32,000 nt of DNA from Candidatus Saccharimonadota bacterium. Its GTDB lineage: Bacteria > Bacillota_I > Bacilli_A > Mycoplasmatales > Hepatoplasmataceae. Within the stretch, counting starts at the first letter, position 1. The number at the start of each line of letters is the position of its first letter. Location of the stretch: positions 390,001 to 422,000 of the forward strand of contig NZ_CP006932.1 in the NCBI RefSeq assembly GCF_000582535.1, in the 5' to 3' direction. The position numbers were made by a program, and so were the translations under genes. Below the pieces are notes generated by a model, which saw nothing but the letters and a program-made list of their open reading frames with translations, searched no databases and was not told where the DNA came from. This document shows positions 9,558 to 32,000 of this stretch, in pieces.

Positions 9558-11426
9558 TTAATCTCATATTTGCAATGCTATTTCGGTTAATTCTTTTGTT
9601 CTTTTATTTATTTTTTCAAAATCTCAATGATCATATTCAGCAATTTTTCGATTTATTTCTAAAATGCTTTCTTTATAATTTTTTTTCTTTTCTGGAAATG
9701 ACTTGTTACTTATACTGCTATTATCAGCAGTAATTGTAAGGTTGCCTAATTTATTCAAAAATTTCTTATGATTAATAATATTTTCAACCCCCAAACTTCT
9801 TTCTCAAATCTTATTTAATTTTTTTGGCATTATATGTTCGATTGTAAATTTCTCTTTACGATTATGATTGATTATTGTTTCATAACTATTTTTTATATTT
9901 CTTTTATTAAGTTCAATTTTTCAAAAAAATCCTTTTAAAATATCATTGCCTTTTTCCCCATAAACATCCATTTTATTTAATCCTTCTTTAAACTCATCAT
10001 TTTCTGGAATAAAATCATATTTTTCCACAAATTCTTCTAAAAGATCATTATAATTATTAATTTTTATTTTATTAATTGTTCTTGTTAAAAGTCTTGTTCC
10101 TTTACCTACAAATTGTCTTTTAATAATCATTTTTTCTAATAAAAAAATTGAATTTTCAAAATCTTTTGTAACTTTTTCAATTTTTGAATAATCTTTTGCT
10201 AATGTTACTTCATTTTCATTTTCTAATAATTGAATTATTATTGGAAAAAATTGTGATCCTGTATATAAATCATTAAAAATCATCAAAGAAACTTCATAAT
10301 CTTTTAAATTACTTTTCTTTGAGATATTTTTATATTTTTTAACCATATCTTTAATCAGTAAAAACTTATTAAAATCTTTAATTGATAATGAAATATCATC
10401 AATTGTTTTAAAACCATTAAATTCTCATTCTACAATTAATTTAAATTTATAATATAAATCTTGAGGATCTTTTTCTTTTGGTAATTTAATTGTTTTTAAA
10501 TAATTATTATTACTTTTTATTGATTTATAAATAATATATTCTTTTACAATTTTTGTAAACTCAATATTACTTTTTTTACCTCATTCAGAAATTTTTTCGA
10601 ATAATAAATCTTCAAAAAATAATTTAATTTCATCTTCTATTTCTATTATTTTCTTTTTATCAGAATTTTTCTCCTTTTCAAGTTCATGTAATTTCATGAA
10701 ATAAATATTTTTGATTAAATCTATTGAATTTAAAGGAGTCCCTTTAGAATTCAAAGTTTCAAATATTTTTAATTCATTATCATTTTCTTGTAAATTAATT
10801 TGAATTATCCAAATATTTTTAAAAATTTTTATAATATCGTAAATATTTTCCTCTTCTAAAAATTCTCTAATTAATTCACGGAAACAAATATAATTATTAA
10901 AAAAAATATTATCTTTATTTTTTGCTTTAATTTTTTTTAATTCCTTGTTATTATTAAAAATATTTATATATTCATTACTATCTATTAATTTTTCAAATTT
11001 CTCTCTATTATTAATTTCACTTATTTTTAATCTAATTTTATTTTTATTTGGTTCATCTGAATCTTGCATATAAATTAATTTATTTAAATTAAATTTATAT
11101 TTCTCAAAATGTGAATAAGAATGATAATCAACAATCTCATTTTCCATTGAATCAATTAAAGCTTTAAAAAATAAAATAAAAGTTGTTATTCTTTGTTGAC
11201 CATCAACAATTCATTTTTTATTATTTTTATCATTATTAATTAAAATATTTCCTAAATATAAAGTTTTTTCTGGATTATTTTCATCTTCTAAATCTTTAAT
11301 ATCCTCAAAAAGAGATTTAATATTATTTTCGTTTCAAACATATTTTCTTTGATATACAGGAACACTATATATTGACCCATAATTAAAAAAATCTAATAAT
11401 TTTATTCTTTGTACAGAATCATTCAT
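9558..11426 (-). CDS. GmrSD-like type IV restriction/defence nuclease (N-terminal DUF262, C-terminal DUF1524 His-Me finger)
   Basis: Fragments 10581-11147 and 9921-10346 plus the flanks form one 622-codon frame. I hand-translated 10346-10581 and 11147-11426 and found only TGA interruptions. DUF262 motifs are VPVYQRKYVW and IVDGQQRITT (about 11190-11204). DUF1524 motifs are FTIEHIMPKK (about 9826-9839), LGNLTITADN and SNKSF. The ATG is at 11426 and TAA at 9560-9558. Confidence 0.75.
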
Positions 11427-11465
11427 CTTATTATTTATTTCCTTTGTGCATTGATTAAATTTAAT

Positions 11466-13299: not shown

Positions 13300-14094
13300 T
13301 TAATTATATTCTTTTATTTTTTTTTCAATGATTTGATCGCAATAAATTTTGTAAATTTCAAAATTTTTTGCAAAATAAGGATCAAGATTTTTTCAATTGA
13401 ATCAAATTGTAGGAAATGGATTTTTTCCTTGTTTTAAATTGTTTTCAATTGTTTTAAATTGTCTACTATATTCATTTTTAAGAATATTTTCAATAGTATC
13501 AATTTTCTCCTGATAAATGTTTAAATTGTTTGCTTCATTTCTTTTCAAACTTTTTTTTACTTTTTCGATTAATTTCTGATTAGAAAAAAGCTCATTTACA
13601 GATAATTTTTTATCTTTTACTTTATCTGGATTTGTTTTTAAATATTGATCAAATAAAATTTTATTATATTGATATTTTGCTTCTGTAAGTGAACGAATAT
13701 ATTTAAATTGTTTTGCATGTGGACCATTAAATCCTTCTCATTCACTATTGTATTTTTCAATATAATCAATTTCTAATGCTTCGATTTCTTCAATTTTAAA
13801 AAATTCTTTTTCCTCTAAGATTTCTAATTTTAAATCACTTATTTTTAAATTATTATCAATCATAAAAAGTGCAATTTTATAGTATGAAGCTCCTTTTGCT
13901 GGAACTGTATATGATTGCAAAGATCTTAATAATAAATTGTCTTTATTTTTAAGCATCTTTCTTATCATCATTTTATGTGCACTAAAACGACTATTGATAT
14001 TTTTCGAAGCACCTATGTAACTTCATTCTTTGTTATTTTCATCTTTTAAGTAAATTCGATATATCCCTGATATTTTTTTTACATTATTATTCAT
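13300..14094 (-). CDS. Free-standing GIY-YIG nuclease-domain protein (homing-endonuclease-like), 264 aa
   Basis: Fragment 13738-13971 extends both ways through 4 TGA codons, and I hand-translated the whole 13300-13740 stretch. The N-terminus is MNNNVKKISGIYRIYLKDENNKEWSYIGASKNINSRFSAHK (GIY ... YIG ... R ... H), followed by ALEIDYIEKYNSEWEGFNG (the E and N of the GIY-YIG core). The roughly 150-aa C-terminal region is unrecognised. Confidence 0.65.
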
Positions 14095-14217
14095 TAATGT
14101 TTTTTCATCCCAATTTTAATTTTTTATTAATTTCTTCTCTTATTATTAATTTGAAATTAATAATCCCTCTTAAATTAATTTTATAATTAAAATTGATAAA
14201 AATGAAATATTTTAATT

Positions 14218-17931: not shown

Positions 17932-19428
17932 TTAAATTTCTTCTGCAGTAAGCAAAGGAATTTCTTCACTATTTGATAAATATAATCATTCTCATGATCT
18001 TCCATCGAATGAATAAATATATTTTAAAGCAGATGCACTAATTCCTGTTGGGCGATAATTAATACCATCTACTGTAAATGATGTATCTTTTCCAGTATAA
18101 ACTAAAATTGGATCAGTAGCAAAAGTATAGTAAAGAGGTTCAACAGTACTATCATTTGTTTCAACATCAGGAAGATAATATAAACCAATTGGATCAATAT
18201 CATCCTCAGTTACTTGATCATAACCTCAAGTTAAAGTTTGTCCATTGCTATTTTTTTCTTCTCTTGTAATATCACTAATTCCATATCCACGAGATTGTGT
18301 TCCTAAAAAAGAATTAGGATTTGCGTTATTACTTACAAGAGCAAAAGCTTGTCCAGAACCATGATTATTAAGTGTAAGATTTAATTCAAATGTTCATTCT
18401 GGATCATTATAATAATCTTGCAATCAAGTTGAAAAATAATAATTAAATCCATTATACTCAGCATTACCATTTGTTAATGCATCCAAAGTTGGTTGATCTG
18501 TTCCTGTTCCTTCAATTGTTAAAATTAAATTTACTTCTTTTCCATTACTATTATTATTTACAAAATTATCAATTGTTCAATTAGGATTAACAGATTCTAA
18601 ATTATTAGCAAAATTTAAAAGATAAACTTCAAATTCTTCTGATGATAATAAAAAAGGATTATCATAAGGCTGATAATATTTTGCAATACTATTTATAATT
18701 AATTGAGCATCTTCTGAAAAAGTAATTCAATTAAAGAAAATAAAAGAAAAAACAAAATATTTAAGATATCCCGGACTAATTACATAATTATCAAAATAAG
18801 CTTCCTGTTCTTCTGTAAGTGTTCTTGATGGTGATCCTTGAATTCAATTTGTTCCTCAAATTGTATTATCTATATCAATTCCTGTAGTATTACTAAACAT
18901 AATATTATTATTAAGAATTGGAGCTACTGAAGCCGGAACACGAAAGAAAATATTTAAAGTAGAAAACATTGGATAATAATCGGAATTATAATCAACATAA
19001 CCAGGAGTATTATTCCCATCACTATCTAATACATAAAGATCTAAAGGTGTTAATTCTCCACTTGGATTTGTTTCTGGATCATAAATTTCAAAAGAGCTAA
19101 CACTTTTCCCTAAGTAACCAACAGAATTTTTTGATTGTTCTACTCCATTTAACATCTGTTCTTCATTTTGTGCTCATACTAAATCTTCATTTCAATGATT
19201 GTAATCTTTCGGAACTCCGATGTAATCGTCAAATTTTTCTCCTGTTCCCGTAATATTTGCATCAAATCCATATACATAAATTGCTTCGGCTTTTCCTAAT
19301 CCTGCTAGTACAATTGGTAAAAATATTAATAATAAAATTGCCACCGTAAGAACAACTGTAATAAATATATGTCCTCAACTTGAGGAAAAAAAATATTTTA
19401 TTTTTAAGCTAATTTCTTTAAATTTCAT
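17932..19428 (-). CDS. Membrane-anchored Trp-rich extracellular protein, putative diverged phosphate-binding protein (PstS-like by position), paralog 1
   Basis: This is a 498-codon frame containing fragment 18856-19155, with about a dozen TGA-encoded Trp. The N-terminal hydrophobic anchor is HIFITVVLTVAILLLIFLPIVLAGLG, with no lipobox Cys. It lies immediately upstream of the pst permease gene. Loose PBP-like segments are ITGTGEKF, MLNGVEQSKNSVGYLGKS and LGTQSRGYG. The function is inferred from context only. Confidence 0.45.
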
Positions 19429-19440
19429 AATTTTTCTCTG

Positions 19441-20403
19441 CTAATTTATACCTAATATCTCTAATTCTTTTATCAATTCTTTTAATTCTTTTTTTGTTTT
19501 AATTCTTACTCCTGCTGCTAATTTATGTCCACCTCCACCAAATTTTTCTGCTATTTTATTAATTGTAATTTCTTTTGATCTAAGCGAAACACGAAATATT
19601 TTTTCTTTTTGATCAAAAATTGCATATAATGCAATTTTAATATTTTTACTAATCATAAGAGTTGAAACAAAATGTGTTATCTCTTCAAATTGCAATTTGA
19701 ATTTTTTCTCAATTCCTTTTTTTGCAACAAAAAAAGCAAAAGAATCTTTTTTCTTATAATGATTAATTACATAAGCTTGATATTTTAATTCTTTTTCTGT
19801 ATATGTATTTAATAATTTATAAATATTTTTTGCTTCAAAACCTTTTATACTATAAATTAAAGATAAAACTCTAAAAGTATCTTTATTTACAGAAGGAAAA
19901 GAAAAACGACCAGTATCTGTTACTATTCCTAAAAAAAGATAATTTACAGTTTTAGTCGTAATTTTAAAATTATTTTTAATACTAAGATAATTTATAAGAT
20001 CGAAAATTATCTCGGAACAAGATGATCTCTCTGCATTTACATATTTTAAACTTGCATTATAATCATCAATTTTAGGGTGATGATCAATTTTAATTATTTC
20101 TTTTCCTAATTTATAATTATTATTTGCAATTCTTTCCTTATTTGCAGTATCAACTATAATTATTAAAGAATCATTAAAATCATCTTCTGTTGGATTATTA
20201 TTTTTAACAAAAAAATCTGATAATCATCTAATATCATCAGCATGTCCAATCATAATTTTCTTATCTTTAAAATTAGTTTGCAAGAAATTAAAAAGACCAT
20301 ATTGACTACCTAAAGCATCTCCATCTGGATTTTGATGTCTTAAAATAATAATTTTTTGATATCTTTTAATTTTATTCAGGAAATTATCAGCAAATTTTTC
20401 CAC
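19441..20403 (-). CDS. nrnA: DHH/DHHA1 phosphoesterase, NrnA-type nanoRNase/pAp phosphatase
   Basis: Fragment 19441-19695 extends upstream to an in-frame GTG at 20403-20401. A TAG lies 2 codons further up and no in-frame ATG is near. Motifs: RHQNPDGDALGS, IIIVDTAN, KIDHHP, GIVTDTGRF, GGGGHKLAAG. Confidence 0.85.
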
Positions 20404-20469
20404 AATTTTCTAATTAATTTTTCAAATTTATTATAAATAATAATAAATTTTTTTGCTCTTTTTTTTAAA

Positions 20470-21981
20470 TTAATTCTCTTCTACTTCTATTAATGAGCCT
20501 TGAATTAAATTTTCATTCATTGCATAAAGTCATTCTCATGATCTTCCATCAAATGAATAAATATATTTTAATCCCTCTGAACTAATCCCTTTTGGATGAT
20601 AAGTATTACCATCAACTTTAAATGATGTATTTTTTTCTGTTAATACTAAAACAGGATCAGTAGCAAGCGTATAGTATAAAGGTTGTGTAAAATCAGTAGT
20701 TGTTTGAGTATCAGGAAGATAATAAAAACCATTAGGATCTAAATCATCTTCGGTAATTTGATCATATCCTCAAGTAACATTTTCTCCTGTATTTGCTCTC
20801 TCTTCTCTTGTAATATCATCAATATCATATCCACGAGATTGAGTTCCTAAAAATGCATTTGCACTTGCTCCATTATCTTTAATTGCAAATGCTTGTCCTG
20901 AATCATGATTATTTAAAGTAAGTGTTAATTCAAATGTTCATTCTGGATCATCATAATAATCTTGTAATCAACTTGAAAGATAAAAACTAAATCCATCATA
21001 ATTTTCATTTCCAATACTTAAGGCATTTAATGTAGGTTGAACTGTTCCCGATCCTTCTAATGTTAAAATTAAATTTACATCTTTTCCATCACTATTATTA
21101 TTTACAAAATTATCTATTGTTCAATTAGAATTAATAGATTCTAAATTGATAGTAAAATTTAAAAGATATTCTTCAAATTCTTGTTCTGATAATAAATAAA
21201 GATCATCATATGGTTGATAGTGTTTGGAAATACTATCAATTATAACTTGTGCATCTTCTGAAAAGGCAATTCAATTAAAAAAAATAAAAGAGAAAACAAA
21301 ATATTTAAGATATCCGGGGTTAATCACATAATTAGTAAAATATTCTTGTTGTTCTTCTGTAAGTGTTCTTGATGGGGATCCTATTATTCAATTGGTTCCT
21401 CAAATTGTATTATCTATATCAATTCCTGTAGTATTGCTAAACATAATATTATTATTAATAATTGGAGCAACAGAAGCAGGAACACGAAATCAGATGTTTA
21501 AGGAAGCAAGCATTGGATAAGCATCGGAATCATAAGAAACATAACCAGGAGTTAAAGTATCATCTTCAAGATTTGTATCATTTGTATAGAGTTCTAATGC
21601 TTTTAAATTTCCTGAAGGATTTAAAATTGGATCATAGACATCAAAAAAACTAACACTTTTCCCTAAATAACCAATAGAATCTTTTGATTGCTCAATTCCA
21701 TTCAACATTTGTTCTTGATTTTGTGCTCAAACAATATCATCATTTCAATATTTATAGTCTTTATCAACACCTATATAATTATCAAAATTAGTTCCTGTTC
21801 CTGTAAAATTAGCATCAAATCCGAAAACATAAATTGCTTTTGCTTTTCCTTCTCCCAAAAAAGCAATCGGAAGAATAATTGAAAGAAAAATTGCTGCAAT
21901 TAAAAAAAAGGAAATAAAAATTTTCCCTCAATTAGAGGAAAAAAAATATTTAATTCTAAAAGTAAGATCTCTTAATTTCAT
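20470..21981 (-). CDS. Membrane-anchored Trp-rich extracellular protein, PstS-like paralog 2
   Basis: This is a 503-codon frame containing fragment 21490-21708. By eye it is roughly two-thirds to three-quarters identical in protein to 17932-19428, with long identical runs (for example RVPASVAPI.NNNIMFSNTTGIDIDNTIWGTNWI and YIYSFDGRSWEWLY). The N-terminal anchor architecture is the same. Confidence 0.45.
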
Positions 21982-22064
21982 ATATTATCTTTATTAGTAA
22001 AATTATTATTTAAGATAAATAATTTTTTCAAATTTAATTATAAATAATATTTAAAAAAATAAAA

Positions 22065-23000
22065 TTAATTTTTAAATAATGAATTTCCATTTAAAATTTC
22101 TTTTGCACTTTGGATTTTTTTACCCGGAATTATGATTCTTTTAAAAATAATTTCTCCATCTATTGTTTGGAAAAAAATTCCTTCTTTATTTATTTTTAAA
22201 AATGTTCCTGGGGCTTTTTTAATTTGTTTTTTTTTAAGTAATTGATAATTTGCTTCCAATACAAAAATTTCTTGATTTTTAAAAATTAATTTTGCTTTTG
22301 GTTTAGGATTAAGAGCACGAATTTTATTATAAATGTCAATTGATTTTAAATTAAAATCAATTATTTGTTCTTCAGGCAAGATTTTTTTTCAAAATGAAAC
22401 TTTATTTTTATCTTGTTTTATTCTAATTAATTTATCATCTACAAATTTATTTAAAACATCAATTATATTATTTGTAATTAAAAGATATATTTTATCCTCG
22501 AGTGTTTTATATGTATCAAAAATTGTAATTGGTAATTTCTTTTGATAAAAATAATCACCAGCATCCATTTCTTCGATCATTTCCATTAATGTAAATCCTG
22601 TTTCTTTTTCTCCTTCAAGAATCGCTCTTTGAATAGGATTTGCTCCTCTTCCTTTTGGAAGTAATGATGTATGAATATTAAGAGAATCTTTTTTTGCTAA
22701 TTTTAAAATTTGTTTAGAAAGAATTTGACCAAATGAACAAGTTATAAGTAAATCAAAATTTAAATCTTTAATTTTATTAATATCTTTATTAATGCTTTCT
22801 GTTTTAATTACATTTAAATTATGCTCTTTTGCAAAAAGAGCAACAGGAGAAGGAATAAGTTCAGAGTGGCTTCTTCCTACTTTTTGATCCTTAGTAGTAA
22901 CAACACCAATAATTTCGAATTGTTTTGCATCAATTAATGGTTTTAATACAGATAGAGAAATATCAGAATTCCCTAAAAATAATATTTTTATATTATTCAT
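22065..23000 (-). CDS. fmt: Methionyl-tRNA formyltransferase
   Basis: Fragments 22389-23000 and 22065-22379 are in frame via TGA at 22389-22391, giving 311 aa. The formyltransferase motif is NIHTSLLPKGRGANPIQRAILEG, and a C-terminal Fmt domain is present. Confidence 0.92.
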
Positions 23001-23011
23001 TTTGTTATCCT

Positions 23012-24253
23012 TTAACTTTTAATTAACTTTAAAAATTCTACAATTTTTAAAATATCTGTTTTTTTGCTTTGATATCTTCGATAAGATATTTTATCGTTTT
23101 TTACTTCTTCATCACCAATTATAATTTGATATTTGTATTTTTGTGTTTGATATAATCTAACTTTATGTCCTAATCTTTCATTTGAAAAATCAAGTTTTAC
23201 TCTTATTTTATTATCTAATAAAAATTGATAGATTTTTTTTGCATATTCTAAATGATATTTATTATTAATTGGTAATATTACAACTTGATTTGGTGCTAAT
23301 CAAAAAGGAAGATTTCCTTTTGTTTGTTCTAATAAAACAGCAATAAATCTTTCATAAGTACCAATTAATCCACGATGAATCATAATTGGTCTAATTTTAT
23401 TTAAATCTTTATCAAAATATTCTAATTCAAATCTTTCTGGTAAGAAAAAATCCAATTGAATTGTAGAAACTGTAATGATATGACCTAATAATGTTTTTAT
23501 TTGAACATCGATTTTTGGACCATAAAAAGCTGCTTCTCCGATTTTTTCAATAAATTTAATCTTGTTTTTTTGTAAAAAATTTCTTAATATAGATTCAGAT
23601 TGATCTCATTTTTTACTATCACCATGATATTTTTTTAGATCTTTTTTATCTCTTAATGCAAGTTCGATATAATCAATTTTAATATTAAATTTTGCTAATG
23701 TTTTTTCTACTAAATTTAAAACAAGTTTAATTTCTGATTCTAATTGATCGTCTCGTAAAAAAATATGAGAATCAGTAAGTTCCATTGCTCTTGTTCTTTC
23801 CAGTCCAAGAAGTGATCCTGAAGGTTCAAAGCGAAATTGATTTACATGTTCTGCAAGTCTTAATGGTAATTCTTTATATGATCTTTTTTTATGCTTATAA
23901 ATCATTATATGATGAGGACAAGCCATTGGTCTTAAAACAAAGCTTTCTTCATCTTTAAATTTCATTTCTGGAAACATATTATTTTTATAAAGTTGATAGT
24001 GACCAGAAGTTTTATATAAATTTAAAAGTCCAACTTCAGGTGTTTCTACATGAATAAAATTATATTTTTCCTCTTGTTCATAAATATAATCATGAATCGC
24101 TTTTTTTAATTTAACACCATTTTCTAATCATATTGGAAATCCTTTTCCAATATTTTCATCAATATAAAAAATTTCTAATTCTTTTGCAATTTTGCGATGA
24201 TCTACTTCAATTTCTTTATTATCATTTAAATTTTGCTTGTGGATTTTTTCCAT
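23012..24253 (-). CDS. thrS: Threonyl-tRNA synthetase, catalytic + anticodon-binding domains only (413 aa; no TGS/editing region)
   Basis: Fragment 23606-23977 extends in frame both ways, with the ATG at 24253 and TAA at 23014-23012. The protein starts [29 protein letters not shown], and DHRKxxKELxxF marks the start of the class II core in full-length ThrRS. Other motifs: [65 protein letters not shown]. Confidence 0.9.
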
Positions 24254-24268
24254 ATAAACTTTCCAAAA

Positions 24269-25045
24269 TTAGTTTTGATCATATGTTAATAATTTAACAA
24301 ATGATTTTACATCAAGTGAAGCACCACCGACTAAAGCTCCATCAATATCTTCTTGTTCCATAAGTTCTTTAATATTTTCCGGTTTTACAGATCCGCCATA
24401 TTGAATTCTTATTTTTGAAGCAATACTTTTATCAAATAATTCAGCAATAATTCCTCGTGCTTTTTTGATTGTATCTTGTGCTTGTTTTGCTGTTGCTGTT
24501 TTTCCTGTTCCGATTGCTCAGATTGGTTCATAAGCTAAAATTACTCTTTCAATCTGTCCTTTTTTAATTCCGGCTAATCCTTCTTTTAATTGTCTTTCAA
24601 TTACAGAAATTGTTTTATTATCTTCAAATTCTTTTAATGATTCACCAAAAGCCATAATCGGAATAATTGAAGAATTTAAGCAAGCTTTAAGTTTTAAATT
24701 AACAGTATGATCTGTTTCATTAAAATATTGACGACGTTCAGAATGTCCTATTATTCCATATCTAATTCCTAATTGTTCAAGCATTGGAAGTGATACTTCA
24801 CCAGTAAATGCTCCTTCTTTTTCATAATGAAAATTTTGTGCAGCAAGATCAAGATCAAGACCTTTTTTTGATCCATGATCATGTGGCATTATAAATGGTA
24901 ATGTAACAAAAGGTGCAGCAATTGCAAAATCACAATTTATTTTTTTATCACTAAGTTCATCTTCTAAATGATGTAAAAAATGATGTCCTTGTTCTGGGCC
25001 ATTATACATTTTTCAATTTCCGACGATTATTTTTTTTCTTTTCAT
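24269..25045 (-). CDS. tpiA: Triosephosphate isomerase
   Basis: Fragment 24518-25009 extends through TGA codons, giving 258 aa. Motifs: N-terminal [38 protein letters not shown]. Confidence 0.94.
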
Positions 25046-25059
25046 ATTATTTTTCTTTC

Positions 25060-26262
25060 TTAATTAATATTATTTATTGCAGCAATTCCTGGTAATTCTT
25101 TTCCTTCTAAAAATTCCATACTTGCTCCACCACCTGTAGAGATATGACTAATTTTCCCTTCGATTCCCATTTTAATTGCCATTGCAGCTGAATCTCCACC
25201 ACCAATAATTGTAATTGCATCTTTTAAATTAATTAATTCATGAGCAATTGCTTTTGAACCTTCTTGATAATTTTTAAATTCAGTAACACCAAAAGGACCA
25301 TTTCAAATTACTGTTTTCGCTCCTTTTAATTCTTTTTTAATTACTTTAATTGTTTTAGGACCAATATCAAGCCCCATTAAATCATCAGGGATATTTTCAT
25401 ATACTTTCCCCTTTACATCTTTATATTCTTTTGTGCAAATTGAATCAGAAGCAATTACTAGTTTATCTTGATATTTTTTCATAAGTTTTTTTGCTAAATC
25501 AACTTTTTCTGGTTCTGCTAATGATTTACCTATTTTTTTACCCATTGCAAGATGAAATGTATAACACATTGCTGTTCCGATAATTACCTTATCTGCTTTC
25601 TTTGCAAGAGCATCAATTACATTTATTTTATCAGAAACCTTAGCTCCTCCCAATAAAGCAATGAAAGGTCTTTTTGGTTCAGAAATAGCATCATGTAAAA
25701 ATTTAATTTCTTTTTCAATTAAAAAACCAATTGCAGATTCTTTAATATATTTTGCAATACCAACATTTGAAGCATGAGCACGATGAGCTGTTCCAAATGC
25801 ATCATTTACAAATAAATCACCAAGTGATGCTCAATATTTTCCTAATTTTTCATCATTTTTGGATTCATAATTTACTAATATATTATTTTTTACATCTTCA
25901 AAACGAGTATTTTCAATCATCATAATTGAACCGTTTTCCATATTATTAATTGCTTCTTCTACTTTTTTTCCACGTGTAGCAGCAACAAAATTAATTGCAT
26001 GTGTAGATGCTTTTGTAAATTCCATTGCAACAGATTTTAATGATTTTGTTTTTTTATCTTCCTCTGTTTTTATTCTTCCAAGATGAGATAAAAGAATAAC
26101 TTTTGCTTCATTTTTAATTAAATATTCAATTGTTGGTAATGCTGCAACAATTCTAGCATTATTTGTTACTTTTCCATTCTCAATTGGAACATTAAAATCA
26201 ACACGAACAAGGACAATTTTACCCTTTAAATCTTTAAGATCATGTAATGTTTTTTTTCTCAT
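25060..26262 (-). CDS. pgk: Phosphoglycerate kinase
   Basis: Fragments 25831-26262 and 25303-25653 plus the tail are in one frame via TGA at 25831 and 25303, giving 400 aa. Motifs: [61 protein letters not shown]. Confidence 0.95.
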
Positions 26263-26330
26263 TATTTTCCTTATTTTTTATTTTATATCTTTAAATTTTA
26301 AAATTAAATAAACAATTTAAAGTTATTATA

Positions 26331-26365
26331 TCAAATAAAAAACAGCATTTATTTAAATGCTGTTT
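26331..26365 (-). terminator. Rho-independent terminator downstream of gap
   Basis: There is a perfect 10-bp stem (26341-26350 aacagcattt pairing with 26355-26364 aaatgctgtt, including 3 G:C pairs) and a 4-nt loop. On the minus strand it is followed by UUUUAUUU (rc of 26333-26340). It starts 11 nt after the gap stop codon. Confidence 0.8.
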
Positions 26366-26375
26366 AAACTTCTAT

Positions 26376-27368
<993 letters not shown>

Positions 27369-27567
27369 TTAAAATTTCTCCTTATTATTTATTTTAAAAT
27401 GTATTTAAAAAAATTTTACAAACTTATTATATAATTTTTAGCATTTAAAAAATAATTATCAAGCGAAGAAATTTTAATTTTACACTTTACATTCTAATTT
27501 ACATTTTTAAATTAAATTAACTAATTTGATAAAATAAAATTAGTGTAAAACACGAAACGGAGAAAAT

Positions 27568-27750
27568 ATGGCACAAATAGCTATAGCTAAAGGAAGAAAT
27601 AGAGATGCTTTAGCAAGAGAAGTATTAGACATTATAAATAGAATTGGCCAAGATAAAATTATTTCAGTAATGTTAGATGAAACAGGTAGACTTGCTAACC
27701 GTGGTGGTTTAATTTCTCAATCAAAAGCATATATCTTTTATAAAGATTAA
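27568..27750 (+). CDS. Small hypothetical protein, 60 aa
   Basis: The ORF is uninterrupted, and GGAG lies 8 nt upstream of the ATG (acggagaaaatATG). A good intrinsic terminator follows. By eye it is noticeably less AT-rich than the neighbouring + strand genes, and its amino-acid composition (R, A, G) is unlike the low-complexity K/N-rich sequence around it. I did not recognise a family. Confidence 0.55.
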   Translation: MAQIAIAKGRNRDALAREVLDIINRIGQDKIISVMLDETGRLANRGGLISQSKAYIFYKD

Positions 27751-27779
27751 AAGAAAAATAAGAATAAAATAATATTTAA

Positions 27780-27811
27780 AAATAGTGATTTTTATAATCG
27801 CTATTTTTTTA
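27780..27811 (+). terminator. Rho-independent terminator after the 60-aa ORF
   Basis: The stem 27782-27790 (atagtgatt) pairs with 27796-27804 (aatcgctat): 9 bp including one G:U. The loop is 5 nt (tttat), followed by TTTTTTT at 27804-27810. Confidence 0.65.
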
Positions 27812-27887
27812 TAATTAATCTTGATTAAACATTATATTAATTTAATATAATTAGTAAATTTTACTATAAAGATTTAAAGGAGAAAAA

Positions 27888-28964
27888 ATGATAAATTTAA
27901 GTTGATCAAATGAATCGCAAAATCAAAATGCAAAAAATATAAAAGATAAAATTTATGAAATTTTAAAAAATGAAGAAATTACAATAAATTTTAATAGTGA
28001 AAGAAAATATAATTATAAACTTCATATTTATTTGCAAGGTTCATATAAAAAAAATATAGATTTAAAAGATAGCGATATAGATATTTTAGTTACTGTTGCA
28101 AGATTACCACATCCAAATGACTTAGAATTTAATGATTTTTTAGAAAATAAAAAATGACAAGAAAATTATAAAGTTGGATTTGCTGATGGAAATTTTGAAA
28201 TATGAGGAAATTCAACTTCATCTTATGAAATTTTGAAAAATTTAGGAAATAGATCTATATATGGAAAAACAATAGAAACCGGAAAACAAGAAGTAACTAA
28301 TATATTAATTAAATTAAAAAATGAAATAAGAAAAATTTTAAAAAAATCAAATGAATTTAATATTATTGAAAATACTGAAAAAAGAAAAAGAAAAGGATTA
28401 AGAATAAAATTAAATAACGAAGAATTTGATATTATTCCATCAATAATATATTTTAATGTTAATAAAGATAATAATTTAAAAGGTATTGGTATTACAATAT
28501 ATGATCAAACAAAAGGAAAAAGAATAACTAACTATCCTACTTATGATTGAGAAAATACAAATTTAAAACATAAAAATACAGATCAAAAATATAAAAAAAT
28601 AATAAGAATAATAAAAGGGTATGTTCGTAATTATAATATTGATATTAAAGGATTTGCAATTGAACAATTTTTATATAATGTTCCTAATAATATTTTTATA
28701 AAAAACTACGAATTAATAGAAACATTGTATGATGTTTTAAGTTGAATTTATACTAATATAAATTTATTAAATGCAAATAATTTTAAATGTACAAATGAAA
28801 TCAAAGAAAAATGTAATGAAGATTATAAAAAAATTGAAATTTCAAAACAAAAATTTAAAAATTTAGTAAATTTAATGATGGAAGATTTTAGAAAATTAAA
28901 ATTTAAAAATATAAGTGATCAAAATATAAATATAATAAAAAATAAATTTAATAGTCTAATTTAA
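27888..28964 (+). CDS. Pol-beta-superfamily nucleotidyltransferase, CD-NTase/SMODS-like (candidate cyclic oligonucleotide synthase), 358 aa
   Basis: AAAGGAG lies 6 nt upstream of the ATG at 27888. Fragment 28233-28550 plus the flanks are in one frame with 5 in-frame TGA codons (hand translated, no TAA/TAG). The motifs are LQGSYKKNIDLKDSDIDILV (G51-S52, D63-x-D65; nt 28038-28082), a third acidic residue in EEFDIIPS (D181, nt 28428-28430), and then ITNYPTYDWENTNLKHKNTDQKYKKIIRIIKGY. That last segment matches the P..h ... iRllK pattern that follows the core in CD-NTases. Confidence 0.6.
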
Positions 28965-29575
28965 TGTTAGAATCAAAATTTATAAATAAATTAACTAAAT
29001 TAATAATTTTTATTAATTTTATTTCAATTATAATTTCAATATTTTCTTTTATATTTAAAAATAATTCTTTATCAGTTTTTGCAATTGCTTTAAGTATATT
29101 TACTATTCTAGCTGATTTATTTTTATATTTTTATATTAAAAAAATAATAATTCATCATAATTTAAAAAAATATGGATTTGAAAAAAACAAAATACATAAA
29201 TTTATTTTAGAAAGTACATATATAAAATCTGAAGATAAAGAGTTATTAGAAAACAAAATTCAAATTAATGGATTTTTTTATTTTTCCTGAAAAAAGAAAA
29301 ACTTACAAATTAATTTATTTTTTTTTAATGAAAAAAATAATAAAATTTCAAAATCAACAAATATTCAATTACTTGAAAGAAATACATACGATTTTAGAGA
29401 AAAAAATAAAAAATTAATTATTTATGAATATAAAAATAACGGAAAAGGAAATAACGGATATGATCATCTAGGAATAGCTTATTTTAATTTAAATAAAAAA
29501 GAAATAAGTTATTATAATAAATATCCAAAATTAAGCAAAGGAATCATATATTTTAATAAAGATAATTTAAATTAA
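28964..29575 (+). CDS. 2-TM membrane protein with beta-strand-rich C-terminal domain (candidate S-2TMbeta-type CBASS effector), 203 aa
   Basis: Its ATG overlaps the NTase stop codon (TAATG at 28962-28966). The predicted TM helices are LTKLIIFINFISIIISIFSFIF and LSVFAIALSIFTILADLFLYFYI. The C-terminal roughly 145 aa has repeated alternating hydrophobic beta-like segments (IQINGFFYFSW, LQINLFFF, KLIIYEYK, LGIAYFNL, GIIYFNK). One in-frame TGA is present. Confidence 0.5.
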
Positions 29576-29621
29576 TAAGTTTATAATTTTATTTCTTTTA
29601 TAATTTTATTAATTTTTAAAT

Positions 29622-30827
29622 ATGGAATCATTAGGAAATGTATTACTTGATACAAGTGGGGAAATTCTTTATTTTATTTTTGGATGATTATTTTTAGCAA
29701 TCATAGTTTTTCAATTTTTGAATTACTTTTTCGAAGATAAATGAGAAATAATGATCCAAGAAAAAAATAAAAGCGATGTCTTAATTGGAGGTATATTTGG
29801 ATTTATCCCCGGTTGTGGAGGAACAATTTTTTTAATCAATCTTTTTAAAGAAGAAAAGATTGGATTAGGAACTTTAATTGCAGCTTTTATTACAACAATT
29901 GGTGAAGTATCATTTATATTAATTGTAATTGATCCTTTACTTTTAATTTATATTTCAATCATAAGTTATATTTCTGCAATTATTGTAGGTTATTTTGTTA
30001 AATATTTAAAAATTCAAGAAAAATATAGTCTTTATGCAACAGCAGAAACAAAAAAGAAAAAATTACATAATCATCAAAAAGAATCAAAAAAAGCATTAGA
30101 AATATTTGGTTTTTCTGATCATTTTATAATTCCAATATTTTTTACAATTTTATTTTTGTTTGTATTTCCTTTTACAATAATTGCTTCATTTATTCCTGAA
30201 GGTCCAGAAAATTTTCCTAATTACTTATCAGCTATTCAATGAACTTCGATTGTTATATTACCTTTAATTGTAATTTACTATCTTATAAGAACATATTTTA
30301 TAAGAAGTGAACATGATGAAGATCATTCCCATGAAAATATCCACGATAAAGGAAAAGAAGGAATTAAACATCAGATAAATCATATTTCTTATAATTTAAT
30401 TTTAATATTATCTTGAGTATCAATTACTTTATTAATTATCAATTTAATAGTATATGCGATTGTTTATTATTCAAATCTTTATCAAAATATTAATGATCTT
30501 CAAGATAATGTTGATCAATTTAAAAATGATTGATGATATTTAATTTTGCTTGTAATAATTGGAGCTTTAATTGGTCTTATTCCAACATGTGGTCCACAAA
30601 TTGCTTTTACTCTTTTAATGATTGGTGAAATTGGCGGAAGTGAAGCAATTGCATTTGGGGGAATAAGTGCACTTATTGCAAATTCAATTTCACAAGATGG
30701 ACATGCCGGAATTGTTTATTTTACATTTGATAAAAAAGGATATGGAATTGTAAAATTAATTGAAATTATAAGTGCAGTAATTTTTGGATTAATCTTTATT
30801 CCATTAGATAAATATACTAATTTATAA
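29622..30827 (+). CDS. Polytopic membrane protein with internal two-fold repeat and His-rich loop; putative metal-ion transporter (resembles the putative 10TM heavy-metal exporter / ArsP_2-type family)
   Basis: Fragments 29751-30242 and 30546-30827 plus the flanks are in one frame, giving 401 aa. The repeated motif is GGIFGFIPGCGGTIF in the N-half and GALIGLIPTCGPQIAF in the C-half. The central loop is SEHDEDHSHENIHDKGKEGIKHQINH. No clear Shine-Dalgarno is present, so the start is uncertain. Confidence 0.5.
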
Positions 30828-31487
30828 TTAATTTAATGTTTCTTTTAATTCTAAATTAGTATTTAAATCAATATTTTTTATTTTAAATTGACTATTATAA
30901 TGTCCGGGATAAATAACATAATTATTTTTTTTACATAAATCATAAAGAAATCTTATTGATTCAAAAAATCTATCAAGATCAGTACCAATTTCTTTTCTAT
31001 GCATTCCAATACTTTTTAAAAAGATTGTATCACCAATAAAAATATCTTTTTTATTAAAAAGATAAAATGTAGATCCTTTTGTATGTCCTCCAAAAGGAAT
31101 TATTTTAATATCAATTCCTAATAGTTTTAATTCTTGTTCTTCATTTCCCAAAAAAGTAATAATATTTTTTTGTTTTTTGTCTAATTGTCAATTTAAATTA
31201 GATAATGCTGATCTATTTATATTTGCATCAAAAAGACCTTCTTGGTCTTTTTGATTAATATAAATTACTGGATTAAATTTTTCAATAATTTTTTCTAATC
31301 CCATAAGATGATCTAAATGATTATGAGTTAATAATACATATTTTATTTTAATATTATTATTTATACAATAATTAATTATTTTATCTTCTGATGTAGCGGT
31401 ATCAATCAAGATTGCTTCTTTATTATCTTTGATATATAGATATGAGTTTGTAAAATTAAAGTTTTTGTTTTGAAATTTTTTGATCAT
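30828..31487 (-). CDS. Metallo-beta-lactamase-fold hydrolase (glyoxalase II-like), 219 aa
   Basis: Fragments 31188-31487 and 30828-31151 are in frame via TGA at 31188-31190. Motifs: LLTHNHLDHLMG (HxHxDH), FGGHTKGS, IGDTIF, YPGH. Its stop codon abuts the stop of the convergent transporter gene with a 0-nt spacer. Confidence 0.8.
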
Positions 31488-31589
31488 AATTTTTTTCTTT
31501 ATATTATTTAAAAAATAAATACAATAACATTATAAGAAAAAACAATTTTTTATTCTAATATATAAATATAATAAAAACAATGAAAAATT

Positions 31590-32000
31590 ATGAACGAAAA
31601 ATACGAAATTTTAACTATAAAATTTGGAAATTTTTTAACACTTTGTTTTACTGTTTCTTTCAAAAAATTAAAAGATAATACTTATGTTTTAAAAAACGAA
31701 AAAATGAATTATGAGTATTATTCAGAAGAAAAAGATGAAAACATAGCAAAAAAAGATTTTGCAGAAGCGATTTTAACATTTTTAGTATCTGGTATAAAAG
31801 AAAGAAAAATTTTTAAATGATTAGAAAATTGAGGATTTAAACAAAAAATAAATGACAAAGAAGCATTTAATTCAGCTTGAAAAGATATAAAAGAAAAAAT
31901 GAATGAACAAAAAAGTAATTTTAAAAAATATAATAATTTTTCTGTAAATAATGAAGGATTACTTTCTAAAGATAGTTTAAATAATTTACAAAATAATCAA
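31590..32000 (+). CDS. Hypothetical protein, 3' end outside the window
   Basis: ORF 31590-31820 continues through 3 TGA codons (KIFKWLENWGFKQ...SAWKD) to the window edge without TAA/TAG. No motif was recognised, the composition is K/N/E-rich, and the start codon choice is uncertain. Confidence 0.4.

What the first reader, a model, noticed from the sequence alone, without database searches (positions are those of the whole stretch)
27888..29575. Minimal CBASS-like pair (CD-NTase-like nucleotidyltransferase + 2-TM beta-rich effector) written in Mycoplasma genetic code
**Seen in the sequence**
- The first gene has the full Pol-beta NTase catalytic signature: G51-S52, D63-x-D65, and a third Asp (D181) in FDIIPS.
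- After the core comes the post-core pattern YP..DW...N..H........YKKIIRIIKGY, which is characteristic of cGAS/DncV-like (SMODS) enzymes rather than antibiotic or tRNA nucleotidyltransferases.
- Its stop codon overlaps the start of the next gene (TAATG), implying translational coupling.
- The second protein has two N-terminal TM helices followed by a beta-strand-rich soluble domain. This is the architecture described for SMODS-associated S-2TMbeta effectors.

**Established knowledge**
- Cyclase plus TM effector is the type I CBASS layout. On phage sensing the cyclase makes a cyclic oligonucleotide, which triggers membrane disruption.

**Inference**
- This is a two-gene abortive-infection module.
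- It carries 6 in-frame TGA-Trp codons (5 + 1), so it is adapted to code 4 rather than freshly imported from a code-11 host.
- By eye it is more AT-rich than the housekeeping genes, and it sits at a strand switch immediately after the conserved glycolytic block.
- To my knowledge such signalling defence systems are essentially uncharacterised in wall-less, minimal-genome Mollicutes, and both proteins look highly diverged.
Basis: partly seen in the sequence, partly recalled or inferred. Interest (0 to 1): 0.82.

Follow-up and report, generated by a model that had tools for sequence, protein, structure and literature searches.

The report
Divergent two-gene CBASS in a mollicute
This is a real but very diverged copy of a known two-gene anti-phage alarm system (a CdnE-type cyclic-nucleotide synthase plus a Cap15-type membrane-disrupting receptor), written in the Mycoplasma genetic code in the isopod gut symbiont Candidatus Hepatoplasma crinochetorum; it extends a known system to a minimal wall-less bacterium and is not a new kind of system.

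Summary
Read with code 4, 27888-28964 encodes a 358-aa nucleotidyltransferase with G51-S52, D63xD65 and D181. Overlapping it by one base (TAATG), 28964-29575 encodes a 203-aa protein with two TM helices and a beta-rich domain.

The window is Ca. Hepatoplasma crinochetorum Av.

**Gene 1** is a CD-NTase closest to clade E:
- PADLOC cyclase model, E = 6.5e-23. This is also the best model for Rhodothermus CdnE.
- Best solved structures are CdnE 6E0K and 6E0M.
- hhalign to Cap15-linked cyclases: 98.9%.

**Gene 2** passes no curated threshold, but is very probably a diverged Cap15:
- Relatives hit PF18153 below threshold.
- hhalign to bona fide Cap15: about 76%, E = 2e-5.
- AlphaFold barrel against Cap15 7N35: TM 0.58.

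**Context**
- The pair recurs in two other code-4 contigs, each in a different neighbourhood.
- The nearest plasmid homologues of gene 1 each sit before a true Cap15.
- The closest sequenced relative, Ca. H. scabrum, lacks exactly this 1.84-kb segment. The pair is therefore accessory cargo.

**Verdict:** a type I CBASS (CdnE + Cap15), a new and highly diverged member of a known kind. It was missed by the published Hepatoplasmataceae defence inventory. Function is inferred, not shown. Interest is moderate.

The parts
27778..27812 (+). Intrinsic terminator hairpin plus U-run of the upstream 60-aa ORF. It separates the CBASS pair into its own transcription unit.
   Evidence: RNA fold of 27770-27820: dG -13.2 kcal/mol, z -5.75, 0 of 200 shuffles fold as well. 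The consensus scan missed it because the stem has fewer than 3 G-C pairs.
27878..27882 (+). Shine-Dalgarno AGGAG, 5 nt upstream of the gene 1 ATG.
   Evidence: Read directly from the sequence. Gene 2 has no such site, which fits translational coupling through the TAATG overlap.
27888..28964 (+). CdnE-like CD-NTase (cyclic oligonucleotide synthase), 358 aa in code 4, with 5 TGA-Trp codons. Catalytic residues are G51-S52, D63, D65 and D181. It carries two lineage-specific insertions, about residues 107-130 and about 146-160.
   Evidence: PADLOC Cyclase PDLC00788, E = 6.5e-23, which is also the best model for Rhodothermus CdnE. PDB hits to CdnE 6e0k and 6e0m at about 5e-10. hhalign 98.9%, E = 1.7e-17. 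Alignment A9. PF26305 CD_NTase_C is on record for this exact product.
28964..29575 (+). Cap15-like effector, 203 aa, with 1 TGA-Trp codon. Two N-terminal TM helices (about 6-33 and 34-59/69) are followed by a C-terminal beta-barrel (about 78-197), the presumed cyclic-dinucleotide receptor.
   Evidence: Hydropathy. AlphaFold pLDDT 76.6, pTM 0.65. Foldseek to Cap15 7n35_B: prob 1.00, TMt 0.58, rmsd 4.0, but E = 0.032. Relatives P0004 and P0003 hit PF18153 at 4.4e-6 and 1.3e-4, below the gathering score. hhalign to bona fide Cap15: 75-77%, E = 2e-5.
27751..29586 (.). 1,836-bp segment present in Ca. H. crinochetorum Av but replaced by about 49 bp in the collinear genome of Ca. H. scabrum Ps-JP. 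It holds exactly the promoter region and the two genes.
   Evidence: blastn of window 20000-32000 against L004. The flanks align at 78-83% identity up to 27750 and from 29587 onward. Junction alignment.

Best explanation
This is a type I (I-B) CBASS abortive-infection operon made of a clade-E-like CD-NTase and a Cap15-type effector. It is carried as accessory cargo in the chromosome of Ca. Hepatoplasma crinochetorum.

**Shown here**
- Two intact, translationally coupled code-4 genes.
- A complete Pol-beta catalytic triad.
- Homology of gene 1 to CdnE cyclases.
- A 2-TM plus beta-barrel architecture for gene 2, with probable homology to Cap15.
- Conserved pairing in other code-4 organisms.
- Absence of the pair from the sister species.

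**Inferred from characterised CdnE-Cap15 systems**
- The cyclase stays inactive until phage infection. The trigger may be a phage RNA, as for staphylococcal CdnE03.
- It then makes a cyclic dinucleotide. Cap15-linked CdnE enzymes make uracil-containing CDNs or cGAMP.
- The cytoplasmic beta-barrel of the effector binds that nucleotide.
- The membrane-anchored protein assembles into a higher-order complex and breaches the cell's only membrane, killing the cell before phage progeny are released.

The topology (N-terminus in, C-terminal barrel in the cytoplasm) is inferred from the positive-inside rule: K5, K9 and K12 precede TM1, and KK..HH..KK follows TM2.
For: **Gene 1**
- PADLOC oligonucleotide-cyclase models, 13 of them, best E = 6.5e-23.
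- Its three top models (PDLC00788, 00801, 00794) are the same three, in the same order, as for Rhodothermus marinus CdnE.
- The best solved structures are CdnE 6e0k, 6e0m and 7x4f, with GS, DxD and the third Asp aligned.
- hhalign to cyclases that sit next to true Cap15: 98.9%, E = 1.7e-17, 241 columns.
- The NCBIfam anti-phage nucleotidyltransferase model NF053871 is the top hit both for gene 1 and for the bona fide CdnE enzymes.

**Gene 2**
- Family members hit Pfam Cap15_CD_rec at 4.4e-6 and 1.3e-4, and a PADLOC 2TM effector model at 1.5e-5.
- Cap15 7n34 was the top PDB hit of the three-sequence profile, E = 0.21.
- hhalign to 7 and to 9 verified Cap15 proteins gives 75% and 77%, E = 2e-5. 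The YxYxN, HxG and YxN...G motifs line up with columns invariant in Cap15.
- In the AlphaFold model Cap15 7n35 has the best target-normalised TM (0.58) and the lowest rmsd (4.0 A) of the 50 matches listed in the Foldseek output.

**Pairing**
- The same cyclase-then-effector order, with overlapping or abutting genes, is seen in L001 and L003. Both are code-4 contigs of 22-26% GC with different neighbours.
- The only plasmid homologues of gene 1 (Staphylococcus epidermidis, Sporosarcina) are each followed by a protein passing PF18153 at 9e-24 and 4e-22.

**Accessory status and defence context**
- There is a clean 1.84-kb indel against Ca. H. scabrum. That genome instead carries a GmrSD-like gene plus a C5-methylase on the other side of the same ArsP_2 gene.
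- In L003 the pair abuts an Eco57I-type methylase.

**Known mechanism.** The mechanism of CdnE-Cap15 systems is taken from PMC10686824 and PMC10419184.
Against: - Gene 2 itself matches no Pfam, PADLOC or NCBIfam model, and neither does P0005.
- The Cap15 PDB hit disappeared when a fourth sequence was added to the profile.
- No Foldseek match reaches E <= 0.001. Other eight-stranded barrels (NHBA, nitrobindin, LolA, lipocalins) score similarly.
- hhalign covers only the C-terminal 80-84 columns. The first strands of the barrel and the TM helices are not aligned.
- Gene 1 is far below the NCBIfam equivalog cut-offs (62 against 350 bits) and does not hit Pfam SMODS.
- Gene 1 carries two insertions of unknown effect between the DxD motif and the third Asp.
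- No phage of Hepatoplasma is known to me, and no enzymatic, toxicity or defence data exist.
- With only two genomes compared, insertion in Av cannot be told apart from deletion in H. scabrum.
Confidence: 0.8

Rival explanations
1. The genes are CBASS-derived but are no longer a working defence. They would be a relic drifting under AT pressure in a reduced genome, retained by chance or as an addiction-like module.
For: - The pair has the lowest GC (16.9% and 13.9%) and lowest GC3 in the window, and is about 42-43% Lys+Asn+Ile.
- Gene 2 has diverged beyond every curated threshold.
- The sister species does without the pair.
Against: - Both ORFs are intact over 358 and 203 codons in DNA where TAA and TAG are frequent.
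- All catalytic and CdnE-invariant residues are kept.
- 27 columns are invariant across four effector sequences that share only 32-44% identity, including the Cap15-like motifs.
- Identical copies are seen in four contigs from independent runs.
- Homologues at 38-45% identity keep the same coupling. This pattern indicates purifying selection.
Confidence: 0.08
2. The pair uses inverse (guard-type) signalling. The cyclase would make its nucleotide constitutively and the bound effector would be held off. Phage sponges or nucleases that deplete the nucleotide would then release the effector, as described for Panoptes and miniature Cas10 systems.
For: - Such systems pair a small nucleotide synthase with a 2-TM effector, and they appear in the same literature as Cap15.
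- Nothing in the sequence fixes the sign of regulation.
Against: - The synthase here is a CdnE-type CD-NTase, not an mCpol, Cas10 or DAC enzyme.
- Its closest characterised relatives with Cap15 signal in the forward direction.
Confidence: 0.05
3. The pair is nucleotide signalling unrelated to phage defence, for example a housekeeping second-messenger pathway or a symbiont-to-host signal that the isopod reads through its own cyclic-dinucleotide sensors.
For: - Ca. Hepatoplasma lives extracellularly on the host hepatopancreas epithelium.
- A cyclic dinucleotide released on lysis could in principle be sensed by the host.
Against: - The pair is absent from the collinear sister species.
- It sits among defence cargo.
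- All its detectable relatives are CBASS pairs.
Confidence: 0.04
4. Gene 1 is a minimal MNT, aminoglycoside or tRNA nucleotidyltransferase, and gene 2 is an unrelated small membrane protein.
For: Pfam reports only the generic NTP_transf_2 domain at 4.8e-5. There are weak MntA (0.016) and, for P0001, ANT(9) (9e-5) hits over the GS/DxD core.
Against: - Those hits cover about 30 residues of the shared core.
- The CD-NTase-specific C-terminal half (residues 130-344) drives the PADLOC, PDB and hhalign matches.
- PF26305 CD_NTase_C is on record for the product.
Confidence: 0.02

Closest known systems
Type I-B CBASS of Staphylococcus schleiferi (Ssc-CdnE03 + Cap15; PMC10686824)
   Same: - A two-gene operon in the order cyclase then 2-TM Cap15 effector, with no Cap2/Cap3 or HORMA/TRIP13 genes.
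- A clade-E-type cyclase, in a low-GC relative of the Mollicutes (Bacillota).
- It sits next to restriction-type defence genes.
- The only plasmid homologues of gene 1 I found are staphylococcal and Sporosarcina cyclase-Cap15 pairs.
   Different: - Only about 25% identity to the staphylococcal and Sporosarcina plasmid cyclases that stand in for this class (I did not align Ssc-CdnE03 itself).
- Two insertions (about 24 and 15 aa) and a roughly 50-aa C-terminal extension in the cyclase.
- The effector is too diverged to pass PF18153 or PF23471.
- Written in code 4.
- The product (cGAMP in the Ssc system) and the trigger (cabRNA in the Ssc system) are unknown here.
Rhodothermus marinus CdnE (PDB 6E0K/6E0L) and its adjacent Cap15 gene on plasmid pRHOM17201
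   Same: - It is the best solved-structure match to gene 1.
- It shares the same best PADLOC model, PDLC00788.
- It has the same gene order, with a 2-nt gap between cyclase and Cap15.
- GS, DxD, the third Asp, the NYP...K...T..YK..IR..K motif and the Trp equivalent to W286 are all conserved.
   Different: - RmCdnE is 288 aa against 358 aa here, with 25% identity.
- RmCap15 passes PF18153 at 4.9e-35 and PF23471 at 2.9e-14. Gene 2 hits neither.
Yersinia aleksiciae Cap15 (PDB 7N34/7N35), the structurally defined S-2TMbeta / Cap15 effector
   Same: [quoted passage not shown]
- The model superposes on 7n35 at TM 0.58 and rmsd 4.0 A.
- The YxYxN, HxG and YxN...G motifs are shared.
   Different: - Sequence identity is about 13-20%.
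- In the proteobacterial operons fetched here the gene order is usually Cap15 then cyclase.
- Ligand specificity is unknown.
- The target is the sole membrane of a wall-less cell, not the inner membrane of a didermic cell.

Membership tests
CD-NTase (CBASS oligonucleotide cyclase) | Pol-beta-type catalytic core: GS motif, [DE]x[DE], and a third acidic residue on a later strand. | tested here: met
   G51-S52, D63, D65 and D181 align with the corresponding residues of CdnE 6e0k and 6e0m, and of the Rhodothermus, Staphylococcus and Sporosarcina enzymes.
CD-NTase (CBASS oligonucleotide cyclase) | Significant similarity to CD-NTase-specific models beyond the generic NTase core. | tested here: met
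   PADLOC Cyclase, E = 6.5e-23, over residues 142-330. hhalign 98.9%, E = 1.7e-17, 241 columns. PF26305 CD_NTase_C is on record for the product.
CD-NTase (CBASS oligonucleotide cyclase) | Passes a curated family threshold (Pfam SMODS PF18144, or the NCBIfam CBASS cyclase or NF053871 equivalogs). | tested here: not met
   No SMODS hit. NF053871 scores 62 bits against a cut-off of 350, and CBASS_cyclase_b 19 against 200. The bona fide Rhodothermus CdnE also fails these cut-offs (287 bits), and the Staphylococcus and Sporosarcina cyclases hit SMODS only at about 1e-3. This test therefore discriminates poorly.
CD-NTase (CBASS oligonucleotide cyclase) | Synthesises a cyclic di- or oligonucleotide. 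| not testable with these tools
   Needs the purified, recoded protein and LC-MS or TLC of the products.
Cap15 (S-2TMbeta effector; PF23471 + PF18153) | Two N-terminal transmembrane helices. | tested here: met
   Kyte-Doolittle windows 6-33 and 34-59, with peaks of 2.76 and 2.35. AlphaFold helices 2-30 and 34-69. There is no hit to the Cap15_TM profile itself.
Cap15 (S-2TMbeta effector; PF23471 + PF18153) | C-terminal beta-barrel of the Cap15 cyclic-dinucleotide-receptor fold. | tested here: inconclusive
   The model has pLDDT 76.6 and an all-beta C-terminal domain. Against 7n35_B it gives prob 1.00, TMt 0.58 and rmsd 4.0, the best TMt in the list. However E = 0.032, and other small barrels score alike.
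Cap15 (S-2TMbeta effector; PF23471 + PF18153) | Sequence-profile membership (PF18153 at the gathering score). | tested here: not met
   Gene 2 and P0005 give no hit. P0004 scores 27.4 bits and P0003 22.7 bits against a cut-off of 31.2. The profile-profile link exists: hhalign 75-77%, E = 2e-5. I therefore call it Cap15-like, a diverged homologue, not a threshold-passing member.
Cap15 (S-2TMbeta effector; PF23471 + PF18153) | Binds the cognate cyclic dinucleotide and oligomerises to disrupt the membrane. | not testable with these tools
   Needs binding assays and propidium-iodide or toxicity assays.
Type I CBASS operon | Cyclase plus effector only, adjacent and co-oriented, with no Cap2/Cap3, HORMA/TRIP13 or other ancillary genes. 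| tested here: met
   The genes overlap by one base. The flanks are a 60-aa ORF with its own terminator and an ArsP_2 transporter. The same two-gene layout is seen in L001 and L003.
Type I CBASS operon | Protects against phage by abortive infection. | not testable with these tools
   No phage of the host is known to me. It would need heterologous tests.

The most novel reading that the evidence does not exclude
The Mollicute pair could be a functionally distinct branch of CdnE-Cap15. Under this reading the two conserved cyclase insertions (invariant DGNF..W and RSI motifs) form a new sensor surface. The strongly diverged barrel would read a nucleotide not yet seen in CBASS, or would work by inverse signalling. 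The effector would be adapted to kill a wall-less cell with a single membrane. The pair would then be a naturally code-4 CBASS usable in minimal-cell chassis.
Probability: 0.1. Interest if true: 0.6.

Novelty: new member of a known kind. Interest (0 to 1): 0.36.

Why it matters
- It adds a signalling-based abortive-infection system to the defence repertoire of a 657-kb, wall-less, code-4 symbiont. The published inventory for this family lists only restriction-modification and CRISPR-Cas9.
- It shows that threshold-based annotation can miss CBASS effectors in extremely AT-rich genomes. The effector fails every curated model and was recovered only through intermediates, profile-profile comparison and context.
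- The locus around the ArsP_2 gene carries different defence cargo in two sister species, which marks a small defence hotspot in a reduced genome.
- Practically, it offers a CdnE-Cap15 pair already adapted to the Mycoplasma code, for work in mollicute or minimal-cell hosts.
- It does not change how CBASS is understood.

Tried and rejected
- **Collection scans for more relatives.** The gene 1 alignment against genome contigs, metagenome contigs and viral contigs found nothing. The gene 2 alignment against metagenome contigs and viral contigs also found nothing. The source genome itself appears to be absent from genome contigs.
- **Exhaustive phmmer of gene 2** against 1.84 billion representatives found only itself and one relative, P0005.
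- **tblastn of gene 1** against phages gave no match.
The code-4 translation is not an exact table-11 product of the window. I used both prediction jobs on gene 2 instead.
- **Four-sequence gene 2 profile against PDB sequences** lost the weak Cap15 hit that the three-sequence profile had given. P0004 alone gave only a spurious hit.
- **Flanking direct repeat or target-site duplication.** Both junctions carry T-rich TATAAT stretches like the single copy in H. scabrum. A pattern built from them did not recover the two sites within 2 mismatches, and repeats in this 14-17% GC DNA are not distinguishable from chance. I rejected this as evidence.
- **Promoter scan** was uninformative: 25 sites found against 29 expected.
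- **No tRNA or integrase** lies nearby.
- **The Apyc1 label** on record for the nearby MBL-fold gene was not reproduced by my Pfam scan, which gave only Lactamase_B.
Full report

The window has 24.4% GC and only makes sense in translation table 4. The gene 2 product is identical to hypothetical protein X271_00379 of Candidatus Hepatoplasma crinochetorum Av, on a 657-kb contig.

With table 4, 27888-28964 gives a 358-aa protein with five in-frame TGA codons. 28964-29575 gives a 203-aa protein with one. The genes share one base (TAATG). Gene 1 has an AGGAG five bases upstream of its start, and gene 2 has no such site.

The pair is the most AT-rich coding DNA in the window. GC is 16.9% and 13.9%, and GC3 is 4.5% and 5.9%. 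All six Trp codons are TGA, in line with 82 TGA: 5 TGG in the other genes.

The upstream 60-aa ORF (27568-27750) ends in a strong hairpin plus U-run (dG -13.2, z -5.75). The pair is therefore its own transcription unit.

**Gene 1 is a CD-NTase nearest clade E**

Pfam reports only the generic NTP_transf_2 domain. PADLOC's oligonucleotide-cyclase models match 13 times, with a best E of 6.5e-23 over the CD-NTase-specific C-terminal half.

The best solved structures by sequence are the CdnE enzymes 6E0K/6E0L, 6E0M and 7X4F. GS, DxD and the third Asp are aligned with them.

I fetched the natural Rhodothermus marinus locus. Its cyclase has the same three best PADLOC models in the same order as gene 1. 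It is followed, two bases later, by a protein that passes both Cap15 Pfam models.

A profile of gene 1 and its two relatives aligns to six cyclases that sit next to verified Cap15 genes with 98.9% probability, E = 1.7e-17, over 241 columns.

In a joint alignment, 26 positions are invariant between the Mollicute proteins and the Rhodothermus, Staphylococcus and Sporosarcina enzymes. These include W106 and W286, which are TGA codons here. That is direct evidence both for TGA = Trp and for constraint.

Hits to MntA and ANT(9) models are marginal and limited to the shared core. I reject those families.

The Mollicute proteins carry two shared insertions, of about 24 and 15 residues, between the DxD motif and the third Asp. 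These contain invariant DGNF..W and RSI motifs. The window protein also has a roughly 50-residue C-terminal extension. Their role is unknown.

I could not predict a structure for gene 1.

**Gene 2 is very probably a diverged Cap15**

Gene 2 itself hits nothing in Pfam, PADLOC or NCBIfam. The chain of evidence for Cap15 homology runs as follows.

- Its relatives P0004 and P0003 (32-33% identical) hit PF18153 Cap15_CD_rec at 4.4e-6 and 1.3e-4, over most of the profile but below the gathering score. P0004 also hits a PADLOC 2TM-effector model at 1.5e-5.
- I assembled seven, then nine, bona fide Cap15 proteins from plasmids. All seven of the first set and both added Bacillota proteins pass PF18153.
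- hhalign between the gene 2 family and those sets gives 75% and 77% probability, E = 2e-5. The family's invariant Y154-x-Y156-x-N158, H168-x-G170 and Y183-x-N185...G193 fall on columns that are invariant in Cap15.
- The better AlphaFold model (pLDDT 76.6, pTM 0.65) matches Yersinia Cap15 7N35 with probability 1.00, target-normalised TM 0.58 and rmsd 4.0 A. These are the best TM and rmsd in the list.

Three weaknesses remain.

- No Foldseek match is significant by E-value, and other small barrels score similarly.
- The weak Cap15 hit in PDB sequence space (E = 0.21) vanished with a four-sequence profile.
- hhalign aligns only the last 80-84 columns.

I therefore call it Cap15-like, with about 85% confidence in homology. 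It is not a threshold-passing member.

**The two genes travel together and are accessory**

The gene 1 relative P0001 (38% identity) lies on a code-4 contig immediately upstream of the gene 2 relative P0003, again with a one-base overlap, and next to a PIF1/AAA_30-type helicase.

A second pair (45% and 44% identity) lies on another code-4 contig, next to an Eco57I-type methyltransferase. A third effector relative sits on a 913-bp contig that is cut just upstream.

The only plasmid homologues of gene 1 come from Staphylococcus epidermidis and Sporosarcina, at 25-26% identity. Each is followed by a true Cap15.

No relatives were found in phage genomes, viral contigs or JGI metagenomes. An exhaustive HMMER pass over 1.84 billion representatives found only one further effector relative. 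The lineage is therefore narrow and so far confined to code-4, AT-rich organisms.

The collinear genome of Ca. Hepatoplasma scabrum aligns to the window up to 27750 and again from 29587, with about 49 bp in between. The 1,836 bp that differ are exactly the pair and its upstream region.

H. scabrum instead carries a GmrSD-like gene and a C5 cytosine methylase on the other side of the same ArsP_2 transporter gene. The interval thus behaves as a small defence hotspot.

I cannot tell gain from loss with two genomes. An apparent flanking repeat did not survive a test. The identical effector is seen in four contigs from independent runs, in the same context.

**How it most likely works**

The steps shown here are these: intact coupled genes, a complete catalytic triad, CdnE homology, Cap15-like architecture, conserved pairing, and accessory status.

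The steps inferred come from the characterised CdnE-Cap15 systems (PMC10686824; PMC10419184).

- The cyclase is activated during phage infection. In staphylococci the activator is a structured phage RNA.
- It makes a cyclic dinucleotide.
- The cytoplasmic barrel of the effector binds that nucleotide.
- The membrane-anchored protein forms a higher-order assembly that breaches the membrane and kills the cell before the phage matures.

In a wall-less cell this is the only envelope layer.

The rivals I considered are a decaying relic, inverse (guard-type) signalling, non-defence signalling, and a non-CBASS nucleotidyltransferase. They are weighed in their own section of this report, and none is favoured by the data.

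**Comparison with what is known, and novelty**

This is the type I-B CBASS layout (CdnE + Cap15), a well-studied kind.

What is new is the host and the degree of divergence. The host is a minimal, code-4 mollicute. The effector escapes every curated model, and the cyclase has lineage-specific insertions.

In the held literature I found no description of CBASS in any mollicute. The 2024 Hepatoplasmataceae genome paper lists only restriction-modification and CRISPR-Cas9. It mentions CBASS only in passing, in connection with a patatin-like lipase.

The DefenseFinder survey states that CBASS is spread across all phyla. I also could not check the supplementary lists of the large CD-NTase censuses. 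For these reasons I rate it a new member of a known kind.

**Verdict**

Interest is moderate (0.36). It is a useful annotation and a possible tool for code-4 hosts, but it is not a surprise to specialists, and no function has been tested.

Noticed in passing
window 9558-11465 (-): A 622-aa protein with GmrSD_N (1.4e-35) and GmrSD_C (6e-26) domains, i.e. a type IV (modification-dependent) restriction endonuclease. GC is 18.2%. It is a second defence gene in the window, and the type is not listed in the published Hepatoplasmataceae defence table.
   Followed up: partly
L004 11248-15189 (Ca. Hepatoplasma scabrum Ps-JP, AP027133.1): Between the ArsP_2 gene and the MBL-fold gene, H. scabrum carries an 888-aa GmrSD-like protein and a 424-aa C5 cytosine methylase that Av lacks. 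Av in turn carries the CBASS pair on the other side of ArsP_2. This is variable defence cargo around one core gene.
   Followed up: partly
window 30828-31487 (-): A 219-aa metallo-beta-lactamase-fold protein, one gene downstream of the pair. Precomputed Pfam hits on record include PF23023 Anti-Pycsar_Apyc1. My own scan gave only Lactamase_B at 7e-19. It is also present in H. scabrum, so it is a core gene and not part of the insert. Whether it can hydrolyse cyclic nucleotides is untested.
   Followed up: partly
window 27568-27750 (+): A conserved 60-aa ORF (MAQIAIAKGRNRDALAREV...) with housekeeping-like GC (29.5%) and a strong terminator. It is also present in H. scabrum and in other H. crinochetorum contigs, and has no family match.
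   Followed up: partly
window 13300-14115 (-): A 264-aa ORF whose N-terminus (ISGIYRIYL...YIGAS) looks by eye like a GIY-YIG nuclease motif. There was no Pfam hit at 1e-3, so this is unverified.
   Followed up: partly
window 17932-19440 (-) and 20470-21984 (-): Two paralogous proteins of about 500 aa with near-identical N-termini (MKFKEISLKIKYFFSSSWG... and MKLRDLTFRIKYFFSSNWG...), each with 12-13 TGA-Trp codons. They are separated by a DHH-like gene. Similar copies exist in H. scabrum.
   Followed up: no
L003 2408-4544 and L001 2139-4526: In the two other code-4 contigs, the CBASS pair is followed by an N6_Mtase/Eco57I-type protein plus a 237-aa ORF of unknown family (L003), or by a 795-aa AAA_30/PIF1-like helicase (L001). 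The cassette thus sits in different, partly defence-like neighbourhoods.
   Followed up: partly
L006, L008, L009 (proteobacterial plasmids): In the proteobacterial plasmid operons fetched as Cap15 references, the effector gene precedes the cyclase, which is a longer 372-380-aa form. In Rhodothermus, the Bacillota and the Mollicute loci, the cyclase comes first.
   Followed up: no
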